Source: Escherichia coli O127:H6 str. E2348/69 (GTDB lineage: Bacteria; Pseudomonadota; Gammaproteobacteria; Enterobacterales; Enterobacteriaceae). From it: DNA of 64,000 nt. A program made the position numbers and the translations under genes. This document shows positions 4,819 to 62,582 of the stretch, piece by piece. Each line of letters opens with the position of its first letter. Within the stretch, counting starts at the first letter, position 1. The notes under the pieces are model-generated. The model searched no databases. It was not told where the DNA came from and worked only from the letters and a program-made list of their open reading frames with translations. The DNA lies in the NCBI RefSeq assembly GCF_000026545.1, contig NC_011601.1; one strand, 5' to 3'.

Positions 4819-5062
4819 AGGATATTTAAAGAAAACGCCTGTACTAAAACCGACCCGTGGTACAGGCGAAGAATACGGGCCTACATCGGAAGCGCCTATT
4901 ATATTTATTTGTATGACAAATAAAACCATAATCCTTGTCTATACGTCCATCTGGCTTATCTTTAATCAATTCACCCGATCTTTGATCTCATCAACGGTAT
5001 CAAAATAACTCAGCGTATAACGTTCAAATCGAACATAAGATTCGATAAATCATGGAGGTTAT

Positions 5063-10577: not shown

Positions 10578-11095
10578 TTTTTCGTGGGATGAGCTAAGGC
10601 TTTCAGCTTTTTTAGATACACAAGCCGCGTTTCAAGAAATCGAACTTGCCTTTCAAGATCCTCAATGCGTCGGTCTTTTGACAGCTCCAATGCTGATGCC
10701 GCTTTTTCTGGATCAACTGATATTGCAATGTTTCTTTTGGTGCCAATCTTGAGCGCGCGTAAACCAGCTTCTCCGCGCTCTTCATAAACCTTCAGCCACC
10801 TGGCTACAGAACCACTACCAGCAAGCATAAAGTGAGCAGCAGCCTGATTAAGGGACATGTGCTGCTCGATCACAGCTTTCATGACCTTAATACGCAACTC
10901 AGGAGCAGCACTAACACCTTTAGGTTTGGGAATTAAACCTTTTTCTCCATGTTTTTCATAGAGGGCAACCCATGTCCTGACCTGGGTTCGGGGGACACCA
11001 AAACGTGCCGAGATGATCCTGTAACCATCATCAGTAGTGAAGTAGTGATTCACGACTTCAAGGCGCTTTTCAAAAGGGTATTTTGGCTTTGACAT
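10574..11095 (-). CDS. IS150 OrfA (InsJ)
   Basis: 173-aa ORF MSKPKYPFEKRLEVVNHY... Confidence 0.9.
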   Translation of the reverse strand: MSKPKYPFEKRLEVVNHYFTTDDGYRIISARFGVPRTQVRTWVALYEKHGEKGLIPKPKGVSAAPELRIKVMKAVIEQHMSLNQAAAHFMLAGSGSVARWLKVYEERGEAGLRALKIGTKRNIAISVDPEKAASALELSKDRRIEDLERQVRFLETRLVYLKKLKALAHPTKK

Positions 11096-11334
11096 ATCAG
11101 GGGCTATTCCATTTCATCGTCCAACAAAATGGGTGCAGTACAGTTGATAGAAATATCGGTCGGGGCCTTCGTCTTTCTGATTCCCGGTTAGCCTGAAAAC
11201 AGAAAGTCTCAGGCACCCGTGAGCATCCTATGTGGTTTCCTTAGGGTCGAAAATAATCACCTGACGAAATTGCGTGCTGTTTTCCAGAATTTTTCGTCAT
11301 TCGGTTTAGTCAGTTTAATCATTCGTTACTCTCG

Positions 11335-57147: not shown

Positions 57148-57378
57148 GCTCGCTGTTTTGTCTCTCTTGCCGTTAAAAATCAAGCTGAATTTTATAGCAT
57201 TTTTTTAACTGGTCTGTCAGGCAGTGGGGCGTTTTTCTACCGCTATTGAGGTAGGTCAATTTGCGCAGGCGGATTATTTTGTGGCAAACACGTGTTCTTT
57301 TTGATTTCGCGCAAAAAGATTCAGAATTTTACTGTTAGTTTCCTCGCGCAGTAATACCCCTGAAAAAAGAGGAAAGCA

Positions 57379-60300
57379 ATGGACGTCAGTCGCAGACAAT
57401 TTTTTAAAATCTGCGCGGGCGGTATGGCGGGAACAACAGTAGCGGCATTGGGCTTTGCCCCAAAGCAAGCACTGGCTCAGGCGCGAAACTACAAATTATT
57501 ACGCGCTAAAGAGATCCGTAACACCTGCACATACTGTTCCGTAGGTTGCGGGCTATTGATGTATAGCCTGGGTGATGGCGCGAAAAACGCCAGAGAAGCG
57601 ATTTATCACATTGAAGGTGACCCGGATCATCCGGTAAGCCGTGGTGCGCTGTGCCCGAAAGGGGCCGGTTTGCTGGATTACGTCAACAGCGAAAACCGTC
57701 TGCGCTACCCGGAATATCGTGCGCCAGGTTCTGATAAATGGCAGCGCATTAGCTGGGATGAAGCATTCTCCCGTATTGCGAAGCTGATGAAAGCTGACCG
57801 TGACGCTAACTTTATTGAAAAGAACGAGCAGGGCGTAACGGTAAACCGTTGGCTTTCTACCGGTATGCTGTGTGCCTCCGGTGCCAGCAACGAAACCGGG
57901 ATGCTGACTCAAAAATTTGCCCGCTCCCTCGGGATGCTGGCGGTAGACAACCAGGCGCGCGTCTGACACGGACCAACGGTAGCAAGTCTTGCTCCAACAT
58001 TTGGTCGCGGTGCGATGACCAACCACTGGGTGGATATCAAAAACGCTAACGTCGTAATGGTGATGGGTGGTAACGCTGCGGAAGCGCATCCCGTCGGTTT
58101 CCGCTGGGCGATGGAAGCGAAAAACAACAACGATGCAACCTTGATCGTTGTCGATCCCCGTTTTACGCGTACCGCTTCTGTGGCGGATATTTACGCACCT
58201 ATTCGTTCCGGTACGGACATTACGTTCCTGTCTGGCGTTTTGCGCTACCTGATCGAAAACAACAAAATCAACGCCGAATACGTTAAGCATTACACCAACG
58301 CTAGCCTGCTGGTGCGTGATGATTTTGCTTTCGAAGATGGCCTGTTCAGCGGTTATGACGCTGAAAAACGCCAGTACGATAAATCGTCCTGGAACTATCA
58401 GTTCGATGAAAACGGCTATGCGAAACGCGATGAAACACTGACTCATCCGCGCTGTGTGTGGAACTTGCTGAAAGCGCACGTTTCCCGCTACACGCCGGAC
58501 GTAGTAGAAAACATCTGCGGTACGCCAAAAGCCGACTTCCTGAAAGTGTGTGAAGTGCTGGCCTCCACCAGCGCACCGGATCGCACAACCACCTTCCTGT
58601 ACGCGCTGGGCTGGACGCAGCACACCGTGGGTGCGCAGAACATCCGTACTATGGCGATGATCCAGTTGCTGCTCGGTAACATGGGTATGGCCGGTGGCGG
58701 CGTGAACGCATTGCGTGGTCACTCCAACATTCAGGGCCTGACTGACTTAGGCCTGCTCTCTACCAGCCTGCCAGGTTATCTGACGCTGCCGTCAGAAAAA
58801 CAGGTTGATTTGCAGTCGTATCTGGAAGCGAACACGCCGAAAGCGACGCTGGCTGATCAGGTGAACTACTGGAGCAACTATCCGAAGTTTTTCGTTAGCC
58901 TGATGAAATCTTTCTACGGCGATGCCGCGCAGAAAGAGAACAACTGGGGCTACGACTGGCTGCCGAAGTGGGACCAGACCTACGACGTCATCAAGTATTT
59001 CAACATGATGGATGAAGGTAAAGTCACCGGTTATTTCTGCCAGGGCTTTAACCCGGTTGCGTCCTTCCCGGACAAAAACAAAGTGGTGAGCTGCCTGAGC
59101 AAGCTGAAGTACATGGTGGTTATCGATCCGCTGGTGACTGAAACCTCTACCTTCTGGCAGAACCACGGCGAGTCGAACGATGTCGATCCGGCATCTATTC
59201 AGACTGAAGTATTCCGTCTGCCTTCGACCTGCTTTGCTGAAGAAGATGGTTCTATCGCTAACTCCGGTCGCTGGTTGCAGTGGCACTGGAAAGGTCAGGA
59301 CGCGCCGGGCGAAGCACGTAACGACGGCGAAATTCTGGCGGGTATCTACCATCATCTGCGCGAGCTGTACCAGGCCGAGGGTGGTAAAGGCGTAGAACCG
59401 CTGATGAAGATGAGCTGGAACTACAAGCAGCCGCACGAACCGCAGTCTGACGAAGTGGCGAAAGAGAACAACGGCTATGCGCTGGAAGATCTCTATGACG
59501 CTAATGGCGTGCTGATTGCGAAGAAAGGTCAGTTGCTGAGTAGCTTTGCGCATCTGCGTGATGACGGTACAACCGCATCGTCTTGCTGGATCTACACCGG
59601 TAGCTGGACAGAGCAGGGCAACCAGATGGCTAACCGCGATAACTCCGACCCGTCCGGTCTGGGGAATACGCTGGGATGGGCCTGGGCGTGGCCGCTCAAC
59701 CGTCGCGTACTCTACAATCGTGCTTCGGCGGATATCAACGGTAAACCGTGGGATCCGAAACGGATGCTGATCCAGTGGAACGGTAGCAAGTGGACGGGTA
59801 ACGATATTCCGGACTTCGGCAATGCCGCACCGGGTACGCCAACCGGGCCGTTTATCATGCAGCCGGAAGGGATGGGACGCCTGTTTGCCATCAACAAAAT
59901 GGCGGAAGGTCCGTTCCCGGAACACTACGAGCCAATTGAAACGCCGCTGGGCACTAACCCGTTGCATCCGAACGTGGTGTCTAACCCGGTTGTTCGTCTG
60001 TATGAACAAGACGCGCTGCGGATGGGTAAAAAAGAGCAGTTCCCGTATGTGGGTACGACCTATCGTCTGACGGAGCACTTCCACACCTGGACCAAGCACG
60101 CATTGCTCAACGCAATTGCTCAGCCGGAACAGTTTGTGGAAATCAGCGAAACGCTGGCGGCGGCGAAAGGCATTAATAATGGCGATCGTGTCACTGTCTC
60201 CAGCAAGCGTGGCTTTATCCGCGCGGTGGCTGTGGTAACGCGCCGTCTGAAACCGCTGAATGTAAACGGTCAGCAGGTTGAAACGGTGGGTATTCCAATC

Positions 60301-60426
60301 CACTGGGGCTTTGAGGGTGTCGCGCGTAAAGGTTATATCGCTAACACTCTGACGCCGAATGTCGGTGATGCAAACTCGCAAACGCCGGAATATAAAGCGT
60401 TCTTAATCAACATCGAGAAGGCGTAA
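57379..60426 (+). CDS. fdnG: formate dehydrogenase-N alpha subunit, selenoprotein (in-frame UGA at 57964-57966), Tat signal
   Basis: two same-frame ORFs (57379..57966 and 58015..60426) joined across a single TGA; twin-arginine signal MDVSRRQFFK. Confidence 0.95.
57967..58010 (+). promoter_or_regulatory. candidate SECIS stem-loop directing selenocysteine insertion
   Basis: hairpin ggtagcaagtcttgctcc immediately 3' of the in-frame UGA. Confidence 0.55.
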
Positions 60427-60438
60427 GGGGGCGAACAG

Positions 60439-61323
60439 ATGGCTATGGAAACGCAGGACATTATCAAAAGGTCCGCAACTAACTCCATCACGCCGCCTTC
60501 TCAGGTGCGTGATTACAAAGCAGAAGTCGCGAAACTTATCGACGTTTCCACCTGTATCGGCTGTAAAGCCTGTCAGGTGGCGTGTTCGGAGTGGAACGAC
60601 ATCCGTGATGAAGTGGGGCACTGCGTCGGGGTTTACGATAACCCCGCCGATCTGAGCGCCAAGTCCTGGACGGTGATGCGCTTTAGCGAAACCGAACAGA
60701 ACGGCAAGCTGGAGTGGCTGATCCGTAAAGACGGCTGTATGCACTGTGAAGATCCGGGCTGCCTGAAGGCGTGCCCGTCTGCTGGTGCAATCATTCAGTA
60801 CGCTAACGGGATTGTCGATTTCCAGTCGGAAAATTGCATCGGCTGTGGTTACTGCATTGCCGGGTGTCCGTTTAATATTCCGCGCCTCAACAAAGAGGAT
60901 AACCGGGTATATAAATGCACGCTCTGCGTCGATCGCGTCAGCGTCGGCCAGGAACCGGCTTGTGTGAAAACCTGTCCGACCGGGGCTATCCACTTCGGCA
61001 CCAAGAAGGAGATGCTGGAGCTGGCGGAACAGCGTGTGGCGAAACTGAAAGCGCGTGGTTACGAACATGCTGGCGTCTACAACCCGGAAGGGGTCGGTGG
61101 TACGCACGTTATGTACGTGCTGCATCACGCCGATCAGCCGGAGCTGTATCACGGTCTGCCGAAAGATCCGAAGATCGACACCTCGGTAAGCCTGTGGAAA
61201 GGCGCGTTGAAACCGCTGGCAGCGGCTGGCTTTATTGCCACTTTTGCCGGGTTGATTTTCCACTACATCGGTATTGGCCCGAATAAGGAAGTGGACGATG
61301 ACGAGGAGGGAAATCATGAGTAA
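60439..61323 (+). CDS. fdnH: formate dehydrogenase-N beta subunit (Fe-S)
   Basis: 294-aa ORF with four Cys clusters. Confidence 0.95.
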
Positions 61324-61969
61324 GTCGAAAATGATTGTGCGCACCAAATTTATTGATCGCGCCTGTCACTGGACCGTGGTGATTTGCTTCTTCCTGGTGG
61401 CGCTGTCCGGGATTTCGTTCTTCTTCCCGACGCTGCAATGGCTGACGCAAACCTTCGGTACGCCGCAGATGGGGCGCATTTTGCACCCGTTCTTCGGCAT
61501 TGCGATTTTCGTCGCGCTGATGTTTATGTTTGTGCGTTTTGTGCATCACAACATCCCGGATAAGAAAGATATTCCGTGGCTGTTGAACATTGTCGAAGTA
61601 TTAAAAGGCAATGAGCACAAAGTGGCGGATGTCGGTAAGTACAACGCCGGGCAAAAGATGATGTTCTGGTCAATCATGAGCATGATTTTCGTGCTGCTGG
61701 TGACCGGAGTGATTATCTGGCGTCCGTACTTTGCGCAGTACTTCCCGATACAGGTTGTCCGTTATAGCCTGCTGATCCATGCGGCTGCAGGTATCATCCT
61801 GATCCACGCCATCCTGATCCATATGTATATGGCATTCTGGGTGAAAGGATCGATTAAAGGGATGATCGAAGGGAAGGTGAGCCGTCGCTGGGCGAAGAAA
61901 CACCATCCGCGCTGGTATCGAGAAATCGAGAAGGCAGAAGCGAAAAAAGAGAGTGAAGAAGGGTTATAA
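61316..61969 (+). CDS. fdnI: formate dehydrogenase-N gamma subunit (cytochrome b556)
   Basis: 217-aa product from ATG 61316 overlapping fdnH stop. Confidence 0.9.
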
Positions 61970-62019: not shown

Positions 62020-62304
62020 TTATTGCGTAACCAGACGGCGCAGTCGCGACACATCCACCGTTTTTTCCGCCTCTGCCAGACTCCAGGCATTTTGCAGATT
62101 CAGCCACATTTGCGGCGAACTGCCGATCACCACGGACAGTTTTATTGCCATTTCTGGCGTCAAAGCTGCTTTTCCGGTCAGCAATCGGCTTGCCGTTGAG
62201 GGCGCAATTTCCATTGCTCTGGCAAACTCGCGCAGGCTGACATTAAGTTCGTCCAGTGATTCCAGAATAATGTCCCCCGGGCGGGGATGATTGGCCATTT
62301 TCAT
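62020..62304 (-). CDS. yddM: HigA-like XRE-family antitoxin YddM
   Basis: 94-aa HTH ORF; start overlaps stop of upstream toxin-like ORF. Confidence 0.85.
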
Positions 62305-62582
62305 CAGTGATAGTCCTCGTAATCCAGTATGTATGCATCGCCATTGACGAATTCAAATGTGATTCGCCAGTTGCCCGAGACAGATATCGCCCAAATTCCA
62401 TCGCGATCGCCGCTTAACGGATGTAGTCGGTAACCGGGCATATCGATATCAGCAAGACAGCATGCTGCATCAATCACAGCGAGTCGGTGGCGTAATCGTT
62501 TGACTTGCGTCGGTATAACGCCGGAGGTTTTGCCGAGAAGAAACAAGTCACGCAATCCCTTGTGTCTGAAATTCATTATCAT
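62304..62582 (-). CDS. HigB-like (RelE/ParE superfamily) toxin candidate
   Basis: 92-aa ORF ending ...[28 protein letters not shown] stop-start overlap with yddM. Confidence 0.65.

What the first reader, a model, noticed from the sequence alone, without database searches (positions are those of the whole stretch)
57964..58010. In-frame UGA in fdnG with adjacent hairpin (selenocysteine recoding, not a pseudogene)
Two same-frame ORFs are separated by one TGA (57964-57966), followed within a few nucleotides by the hairpin ggtagcaagtcttgctcc. This is the arrangement expected for selenocysteine insertion in formate dehydrogenase-N, and gene callers will otherwise split or truncate fdnG.
Basis: partly seen in the sequence, partly recalled or inferred. 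Interest (0 to 1): 0.25.

Follow-up and report, generated by a model that had tools for sequence, protein, structure and literature searches.

The report
Selenocysteine UGA and SECIS in fdnG
The in-frame TGA is the well-known selenocysteine codon (residue 196) of E. coli formate dehydrogenase-N, and the hairpin after it is its insertion signal, so this is an ordinary, correctly read textbook feature, not a broken gene.

Summary
The observation and the interpretation are both right, and the feature is already known. TGA at 57964-57966 joins two same-frame ORFs (57379-57966 and 58015-60426). Read through, they give a 1015-residue protein that aligns end to end with the crystal-structure chain of E. 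coli formate dehydrogenase-N alpha (PDB 1kqf_A). That chain has a non-standard residue exactly at position 196. The hairpin ggtagcaagtcttgctcc lies at 57978-57995, 11 nt after the TGA, the same spacing as in fdhF. It has the bulged U (57980) and loop G-U (57986-57987) reported in the literature as the SelB-binding nucleotides. Rfam's SECIS_3 model matches 57961-58019 at 84.3 bits (gathering score 63, E 4.5e-20). The DNA is 100% identical to E. coli E2348/69, where RefSeq annotates one uninterrupted fdnG CDS followed by fdnH and fdnI. Of 120 hits to the QARV-[TGA/TGY]-HGP motif in other species' genomes, 115 carry TGA and 5 carry a Cys codon. The apical hairpin shows compensatory changes in the TGA set. 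It is not kept in the five Cys-codon sequences. The lower stem shows no covariation. Interest is low: this was published in 1991 and is already annotated.

The parts
57964..57966 (+). UGA codon 196 of fdnG, decoded as selenocysteine (the molybdenum-ligand residue of the active site, from published structures)
   Evidence: It is the only internal stop in 57379-60426. It aligns with the non-standard residue X196 of PDB 1kqf_A. TGA is found in 115 of 120 motif hits in other genomes.
57961..58019 (+). Bacterial SECIS element (Rfam RF01989 SECIS_3), full model match
   Evidence: 84.3 bits against a gathering score of 63, E 4.5e-20, model positions 1-59 of 59. It is the only SECIS hit in the window.
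57978..57995 (+). Apical SECIS hairpin GG-U-AGCAA-GUC-UUGCU-CC, inferred to be the SelB-binding minihelix. Bulged U at 57980, loop G at 57986 and U at 57987.
   Evidence: Folds as ((.(((((...))))))). Across 74 distinct orthologous sequences, 96.7% of cells are paired, 4 of 7 pairs show compensatory changes, and 0 of 500 shuffles reach the covariation score. The bulged U and loop U are invariant and the loop G is at least 90% conserved. These positions equal U17, G23 and U24 of the fdhF numbering cited in PMC8659212.
57967..57977 (+). 11-nt spacer between UGA and the apical hairpin; also the 5' arm of the lower stem
   Evidence: The hairpin starts at index 18 and the UGA at index 4 in both fdnG and fdhF. 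The literature gives 11 nt from UGA.
58001..58011 (+). 3' arm of the putative lower stem (register uncertain)
   Evidence: The MFE fold pairs 57966-57976 with 58001-58011, while the Rfam consensus uses a register shifted by one. Neither register shows convincing covariation: 83.6% and 80.7% of cells paired, with 0 and 1 compensatory pairs.
57379..60426 (+). fdnG, formate dehydrogenase-N alpha subunit (1015 aa including Sec196). The N-terminus carries the twin-arginine motif SRRQFFK.
   Evidence: Residues 1-1015 align with 1kqf_A at E = 0. TIGR01553 scores 1622.8 bits against a cutoff of 814. RefSeq annotates a single fdnG CDS in identical DNA.
60439..61323 (+). fdnH, formate dehydrogenase-N beta (Fe-S) subunit
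   Evidence: TIGR01582 scores 482 bits against a cutoff of 334.7. RefSeq annotation.
61316..61969 (+). fdnI, formate dehydrogenase-N gamma (cytochrome b556) subunit
   Evidence: NF007558 scores 486 bits against a cutoff of 339. RefSeq annotation.

Best explanation
The TGA at 57964-57966 is codon 196 of the E. coli fdnG gene and is translated as selenocysteine. The mRNA just downstream, still inside the coding sequence, folds into a bacterial SECIS element. Its apical hairpin (57978-57995) begins 11 nt after the UGA and presents a bulged U and a loop G-U. By established knowledge of the E. coli system, the C-terminal domain of the elongation factor SelB binds this hairpin. SelB carries GTP and Sec-tRNA(Sec) (selC, anticodon UCA, made by SelA and SelD), so the tRNA is delivered to the ribosomal A site when the UGA arrives there, in competition with release factor 2. 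The result is full-length FdnG with Sec196 at the molybdenum centre, which assembles with FdnH and FdnI into the nitrate-inducible respiratory formate dehydrogenase. Shown here: the codon, the structure-model match, the identity of the gene, conservation and covariation of the hairpin, its loss in Cys-codon orthologues, and tRNA-Sec in E. coli genomes. Inferred from the literature: SelB binding, competition with RF2, and the catalytic role of Sec196.
For: Rfam SECIS_3 matches at 84.3 bits, above the gathering score of 63, with E 4.5e-20. The read-through product aligns 1-1015 with PDB 1kqf_A, which has a non-standard residue at 196. It scores 1622.8 bits on TIGR01553. The DNA is 100% identical to E. 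coli E2348/69, with one uninterrupted fdnG CDS followed by fdnH and fdnI. The 101 bp around the site are at least 99% identical in 5406 of 5433 E. coli records. fdoG differs at two synonymous sites only, and fdhF has the same 11-nt spacing and the GGU...GUC motif. Of 120 motif hits in other genomes, 115 carry TGA. The apical hairpin is 96.7% paired, has 4 of 7 pairs with compensatory changes, and is reached by 0 of 500 shuffles; the slid controls give 30-63% paired. The Cys-codon orthologues lack a SECIS_3 hit and keep 2-5 of 7 pairs. tRNA-Sec is found in 5424 of 5426 E. coli genomes. Literature: Berg et al. 1991, J Biol Chem 266:22380, is cited in PMC13188914 as evidence that UGA in fdnG encodes selenocysteine. 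fdnG, fdoG and fdhF are the three E. coli selenopolypeptide genes (PMC4009273). The SECIS rules of 11 nt, U17, G23 and U24 are in PMC8659212.
Against: Nothing contradicts the explanation. Weak points: the folding energy of the 49-nt stretch is not unusual against shuffles (z = -1.45). The lower stem has no covariation support and its register is ambiguous. Covariation inside a coding region can be inflated by codon and amino-acid constraints and by relatedness of the sequences. The presence of selA, selB and selD in this particular genome was not checked.
Confidence: 0.98

Rival explanations
1. fdnG is a pseudogene in this strain: the TGA is a nonsense mutation that truncates the protein at 195 residues.
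For: A mechanical ORF list splits the gene at this codon.
Against: The same TGA lies in a region at least 99% identical in 5406 of 5433 E. coli records, and 115 of 120 motif hits in other species carry TGA. The 803 downstream codons remain open, in frame and near-identical to the crystallised protein. RefSeq gives no pseudogene flag. A SECIS element follows the codon.
Confidence: 0.005
2. The two ORFs are separate genes, and the hairpin is an intercistronic regulatory or terminator-like structure.
For: The second ORF begins with ATG at 58015.
Against: The 48 nt between the TGA and that ATG encode HGPTVASLAPTFGRGA, which aligns residue for residue with FdnG 197-212 in 1kqf_A and is conserved as protein across phyla. 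The solved chain is a single 1015-residue polypeptide. The hairpin is not followed by a T run.
Confidence: 0.005
3. The UGA is read through by a standard tRNA (near-cognate Trp or Cys) rather than by Sec-tRNA, and the hairpin merely slows the ribosome.
For: Low-level selenium-independent read-through at the fdhF SECIS is suggested by the title of a paper (Liu, Reches, Engelberg-Kulka) listed in the references of PMC8659212. Cys-containing orthologues exist.
Against: The SelB-contact nucleotides are conserved (bulged U and loop U invariant, loop G at least 90%) at a fixed 11-nt distance. tRNA-Sec is nearly universal in E. coli. The 1991 paper cited reports selenocysteine at this codon. At most this is a minor side pathway.
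Confidence: 0.01

Closest known systems
E. coli K-12 fdnG Sec196 recoding site (Berg et al. 1991; structure PDB 1kqf/1kqg)
   Same: It is the same gene, the same codon and the same downstream sequence. The protein aligns 1-1015 with the non-standard residue at 196. The operon order is fdnG-fdnH-fdnI, next to yddG, narU and narZ.
   Different: There are only a few strain-level amino-acid polymorphisms, for example D/E at residue 127 and F/L at residue 342 in the alignment. None lies in the recoding region.
E. coli fdoG SECIS (formate dehydrogenase-O)
   Same: The apical hairpin, the spacer and the UGA are identical. It belongs to the same Rfam family type.
   Different: There are two synonymous changes in the region shown: CGC to CGT before the UGA and CAC to CAT after it. 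The second turns a lower-stem C-G pair into U-G.
E. coli fdhF SECIS (formate dehydrogenase-H; Rfam SECIS_2, RF01988)
   Same: The UGA is followed by an 11-nt spacer, then GGU with a bulged U, and a G-U in the apical loop.
   Different: The stem is 4 bp with a 4-nt GGUC loop (17 nt), against 5 bp with a GUC loop (18 nt) here. The 3' flank is different. The window element scores only 28.8 bits on SECIS_2, whose gathering score is 70.
Cys-type FdnG orthologues (Snodgrassella, Vogesella, Rivihabitans, Orbaceae)
   Same: The active-site motif QARV-x-HGP and the downstream FGRGAM are the same.
   Different: They carry TGT or TGC instead of TGA, have no SECIS_3 hit, and keep only 2-5 of the 7 hairpin pairs.

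Membership tests
Bacterial SECIS element (Rfam RF01989 SECIS_3) | Score at or above the family's gathering threshold on the covariance model | tested here: met
   84.3 bits against 63, full-length match 1-59 of 59.
Bacterial SECIS element (Rfam RF01989 SECIS_3) | Lies immediately 3' of an in-frame UGA, inside the coding sequence | tested here: met
   The UGA is at model positions 4-6, and the reading frame continues for 819 more codons.
Bacterial SECIS element (Rfam RF01989 SECIS_3) | Apical minihelix 11 nt from the UGA, with a bulged U and G-U in the loop (U17, G23, U24 in fdhF numbering) | tested here: met
   The spacer is 11 nt, the bulged U is at 57980, and G and U are at 57986-57987. The rule is taken from PMC8659212. 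These columns are invariant or at least 90% conserved in 74 distinct sequences.
Bacterial SECIS element (Rfam RF01989 SECIS_3) | Base pairing maintained by compensatory change across orthologues | tested here: met
   For the apical helix, 4 of 7 pairs are compensatory and 96.7% of cells are paired. For the lower stem the test is inconclusive.
Bacterial SECIS element (Rfam RF01989 SECIS_3) | Binds SelB and directs Sec insertion | not testable with these tools
   This needs a binding or 75Se-labelling experiment. It is reported for this gene in the literature cited.
Formate dehydrogenase-N alpha subunit (TIGR01553; Mo-bisPGD DMSO reductase superfamily) | Equivalog HMM score above the curated cutoff over the full length | tested here: met
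   1622.8 bits against 814.2, residues 2-1014.
Formate dehydrogenase-N alpha subunit (TIGR01553; Mo-bisPGD DMSO reductase superfamily) | Sec (or Cys) at the active-site position within the RV-U-HGP motif | tested here: met
   The TGA aligns with X196 of 1kqf_A. The motif is conserved in 120 hits from other genomes.
Formate dehydrogenase-N alpha subunit (TIGR01553; Mo-bisPGD DMSO reductase superfamily) | Operon partners: beta Fe-S subunit and gamma cytochrome b subunit | tested here: met
   fdnH matches TIGR01582 at 482 bits, and fdnI matches NF007558 at 486 bits, which outscores the FDH-O gamma model at 270 bits.
Selenocysteine-decoding organism | tRNA-Sec (selC) present in the genome | tested here: met
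   There is none in the window, but tRNA-Sec is annotated in 5424 of 5426 complete E. coli genomes. It matched at 100% identity to features annotated tRNA-Sec.
Selenocysteine-decoding organism | selA, selB and selD present | not tested
   These genes lie outside the window and were not searched. They are known for E. coli from the literature.

The most novel reading that the evidence does not exclude
Besides recoding, the UGA-SECIS site could act as a selenium checkpoint for the whole operon. Without Sec-tRNA, ribosomes would terminate at codon 196. The remaining 2.4 kb of fdnG would then be untranslated, and transcription of fdnH and fdnI could be cut by Rho-dependent polarity. The abstract of a paper on Treponema primitia describes selenium control of transcription through translational uncoupling (PMC3892789, listed). 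The ambiguous lower-stem register in enteric bacteria could tune how often this happens. Nothing here tests this.
Probability: 0.3. Interest if true: 0.2.

Novelty: already known. Interest (0 to 1): 0.05.

Why it matters
The practical value is for annotation. A naive gene caller will split fdnG into fragments of 195 aa and 803 aa, or call it a pseudogene. The correct call is a single selenoprotein CDS with a translation exception at codon 196, as RefSeq already has it. Biologically this is one of the three classic E. coli selenoproteins. It adds nothing new, though the contrast between Sec and Cys orthologues illustrates how a SECIS constrains coding sequence.

Tried and rejected
1. Thermodynamic stability as evidence: the 49-nt fold has z = -1.45, with 19 of 200 shuffles folding at least as well, so it is not informative by itself.

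2. Rfam SECIS_2, the fdhF-type model: only 28.8 bits against a gathering score of 70. The element belongs to the fdnG/fdoG-type family instead.

3. Lower-stem covariation was tested in the Rfam register and in the register of the MFE fold. Neither gives convincing compensatory changes, so I do not claim a defined lower stem.

It was repeated with C as a placeholder.

5. One structure string contained a stray character and was repeated.

6. The minus strand has shadow ORFs, for example 57553-58722 (389 aa). No gene is annotated there in the identical RefSeq DNA, so they were dismissed.

7. The mir-129 match at 57291-57324 (E 0.43, 20.9 bits against 48.6) was dismissed as chance.

8. The large protein-database searches, structure prediction and fold search were not used. 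They were unnecessary because an identical solved structure exists.

Full report
**Observation.** The sequence at 57960-58019 reads cgtcTGAcacggaccaacGGTAGCAAGTCTTGCTCCaacatttggtcgcggtgcgatgac. The TGA occupies 57964-57966. The mechanical ORF list gives 57379-57966 (195 aa, ATG start) and 58015-60426 (803 aa) on the + strand, both in the same frame. Translating 57379-60426 in one piece gives 1016 codons with a single internal stop. On its own it folds as ((.(((((...))))))): two G-C pairs, a bulged U, five more pairs and a GUC loop. The only refinements concern position. The hairpin begins 11 nt after the stop codon, so it is not strictly adjacent.

**Is it more than chance?** Folding energy is not decisive, with z = -1.45 against dinucleotide shuffles. 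The Rfam covariance model SECIS_3 (RF01989) matches 57961-58019 over its full length at 84.3 bits. Its gathering score is 63, and E = 4.5e-20 on the 2-kb stretch searched. On the whole 64-kb window E = 1.4e-18, and this is the only SECIS hit. The fdhF-type model SECIS_2 scores only 28.8 bits against its gathering score of 70, so the element is of the fdnG/fdoG type.

**What the gene is.**
- With a placeholder at the TGA, the 1015-residue product aligns 1-1015 with PDB chain 1kqf_A, 'formate dehydrogenase, nitrate-inducible, major subunit'. That chain has a non-standard residue (X) at position 196, exactly the TGA codon.
- The next-best solved relatives are named 'formate dehydrogenase, alpha subunit, selenocysteine-containing'.
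- NCBIfam TIGR01553 (formate dehydrogenase-N subunit alpha) scores 1622.8 bits against a cutoff of 814.
- The two downstream ORFs are FdnH (TIGR01582, 482 bits) and FdnI (NF007558, 486 bits).
- Window 57300-60500 is 100% identical to E. coli E2348/69 (O127:H6). RefSeq there annotates one uninterrupted fdnG CDS with no pseudogene flag, then fdnH and fdnI. yddG, narU and narZ lie upstream, and a HigB/HigA-type pair, adhP and maeA lie downstream.

**Conservation within E. coli and comparison with the paralogous sites.**
- The 101 bp around the TGA are at least 99% identical in 5406 of 5433 matching records, from 5425 of 5426 complete genomes.
- The fdoG site was taken from a genome in which it lies in the fdhD-fdoGHI-fdhE context. 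In the stretch shown it differs from fdnG at two synonymous positions only.
- The fdhF site was found with the SECIS_2 consensus and is present in 5419 genomes. It has the same layout: UGA, an 11-nt spacer, GGU with the bulged U, and a loop containing G-U. Its stem is one base pair shorter and its 3' flank is different.
- The published rules for the E. coli SECIS are an upper stem-loop 11 nt from the UGA, with U17 bulged and G23 and U24 in the apical loop, U17 and G23 being named as the SelB-binding sites (PMC8659212). Here these map to 57980, 57986 and 57987.

**Orthologues elsewhere.**
Of these, 115 have TGA, 4 have TGT and 1 has TGC.
- Twenty of these loci share a 59-nt element identical to the window's.
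- An ungapped alignment was made of the 74 distinct TGA sequences. The apical helix forms standard pairs in 96.7% of cells, and four of its seven pairs show changes on both sides. Examples are A-U to G-C or C-G at pair 21-33, G-C to U-G at pair 22-32, and A-U to C-G at pair 24-30.
- No shuffle out of 500 reaches the observed covariation score. Sliding the 3' partner by 1-3 columns drops pairing to 30-63%.
- These changes include paired amino-acid substitutions, VASLAP to VSSLGP. The RNA structure is therefore constraining the protein sequence.
- The five Cys-codon orthologues come from Snodgrassella, two Vogesella, Rivihabitans and an Orbaceae bacterium. They encode a similar peptide, but they keep only 2-5 of the 7 pairs and give no SECIS_3 hit at gathering score. 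TGA controls from Burkholderia, Rhodospirillales, Terriglobia and Actinomycetota do give a hit.
- The TGA-bearing Desulfovibrio, Mailhella and Chloroflexi loci also miss the SECIS_3 threshold. The Desulfovibrio and Mailhella sequences have a visibly different hairpin, which suggests a different SECIS class.
- The lower stem is not supported. The Rfam register gives 83.6% pairing with no compensatory pair. The alternative register, preferred by the MFE fold of the E. coli sequence, gives 80.7% with one. This fits the literature view that the 17-nt upper stem-loop carries the conserved, predictive sequence, but I did not test it.

**Machinery.** No tRNA gene lies in the window. The E. coli tRNA-Sec sequence matches features annotated tRNA-Sec in 5424 of 5426 complete E. 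coli genomes. I did not search for selA, selB or selD. The literature lists them for E. coli (PMC4009273).

**Mechanism.** Shown here are the codon, the model match, the gene identity, the conservation, the covariation and its loss together with the loss of TGA. The following steps are inferred from established knowledge. SelB-GTP-Sec-tRNA(Sec) binds the apical hairpin through its C-terminal domain. It delivers the tRNA to the UGA in the A site in competition with RF2. The abstract of PMC4513850 (listed) reports a recoding efficiency of 30-40% in vivo. Sec196 then sits at the Mo-bis-PGD centre of the periplasmic, Tat-exported alpha subunit. The N-terminus has the twin-arginine motif SRRQFFK.

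**Rivals.**
- A pseudogene is excluded by conservation of the TGA and of the intact downstream frame.
- Two separate genes are excluded because the 48 nt between the TGA and the next ATG encode conserved FdnG residues, and the solved chain is one polypeptide.
- Read-through by a standard tRNA can be at most a minor side reaction.

**Comparison with what is known, and verdict.**
- This is the fdnG selenocysteine site itself. It was published in 1991: Berg, Li, Heider and Stewart, J Biol Chem 266:22380, as listed in the references of PMC13188914.
- The site is also represented in Rfam, in the PDB and in RefSeq annotation.
- Novelty: already known.
- Interest: low. The main value is as an annotation caution.

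Noticed in passing
window 4829-4892 (-): RydC small RNA, Rfam RF00505, 90.5 bits against a gathering score of 48.
   Followed up: no
window 11066-11218 (-): sok antitoxin RNA (RF01794), 70.3 bits against a gathering score of 59. This implies a hok/sok-type toxin-antitoxin locus here.
   Followed up: no
window 62020-62304 and 62304-62582 (-): Two small overlapping ORFs directly after fdnI. They correspond to yddM (HigA-family antitoxin) and a RelE/ParE-family toxin in the identical RefSeq DNA.
   Followed up: partly
L002 3449-6499 (NZ_CP061758.1): RefSeq labels this gene 'fdnG, formate dehydrogenase-N subunit alpha' although it lies between fdhD and fdoH-fdoI-fdhE and so is fdoG. This is a naming slip of the annotation pipeline.
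   Followed up: partly
E. coli genome search results: Seven to eight fdnG/fdoG-like matches lie on E. coli plasmids rather than chromosomes, and some genomes have three places instead of two. These were not examined.
   Followed up: no
L004 492-583 (-) and 11047-11105 (-): In Candidatus Burkholderia verschuerenii, a tRNA-Sec gene lies about 10 kb from the formate dehydrogenase SECIS. A group II intron fragment sits at the locus end.
   Followed up: no
L028, L059, L079: The Desulfovibrio, Mailhella and Chloroflexi orthologues keep TGA in the same motif but do not reach the SECIS_3 gathering score. The Desulfovibrio and Mailhella downstream sequence (GGTACCGGCTCTGGCAGAG) suggests a different SECIS class.
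   Followed up: partly
window 57301-57314 (+): TTGATttcgCGCAA, about 65 nt upstream of the fdnG start codon, resembles an FNR-type site (TTGAT-N4-ATCAA). That would fit anaerobic control of fdnGHI. It was read by eye only.
   Followed up: no
window 57966-57976 with 58001-58011: In enteric sequences the lower SECIS stem pairs better in a register shifted by one relative to the Rfam consensus (A57972-U58005 instead of A-G). Neither register shows covariation across species.
   Followed up: yes
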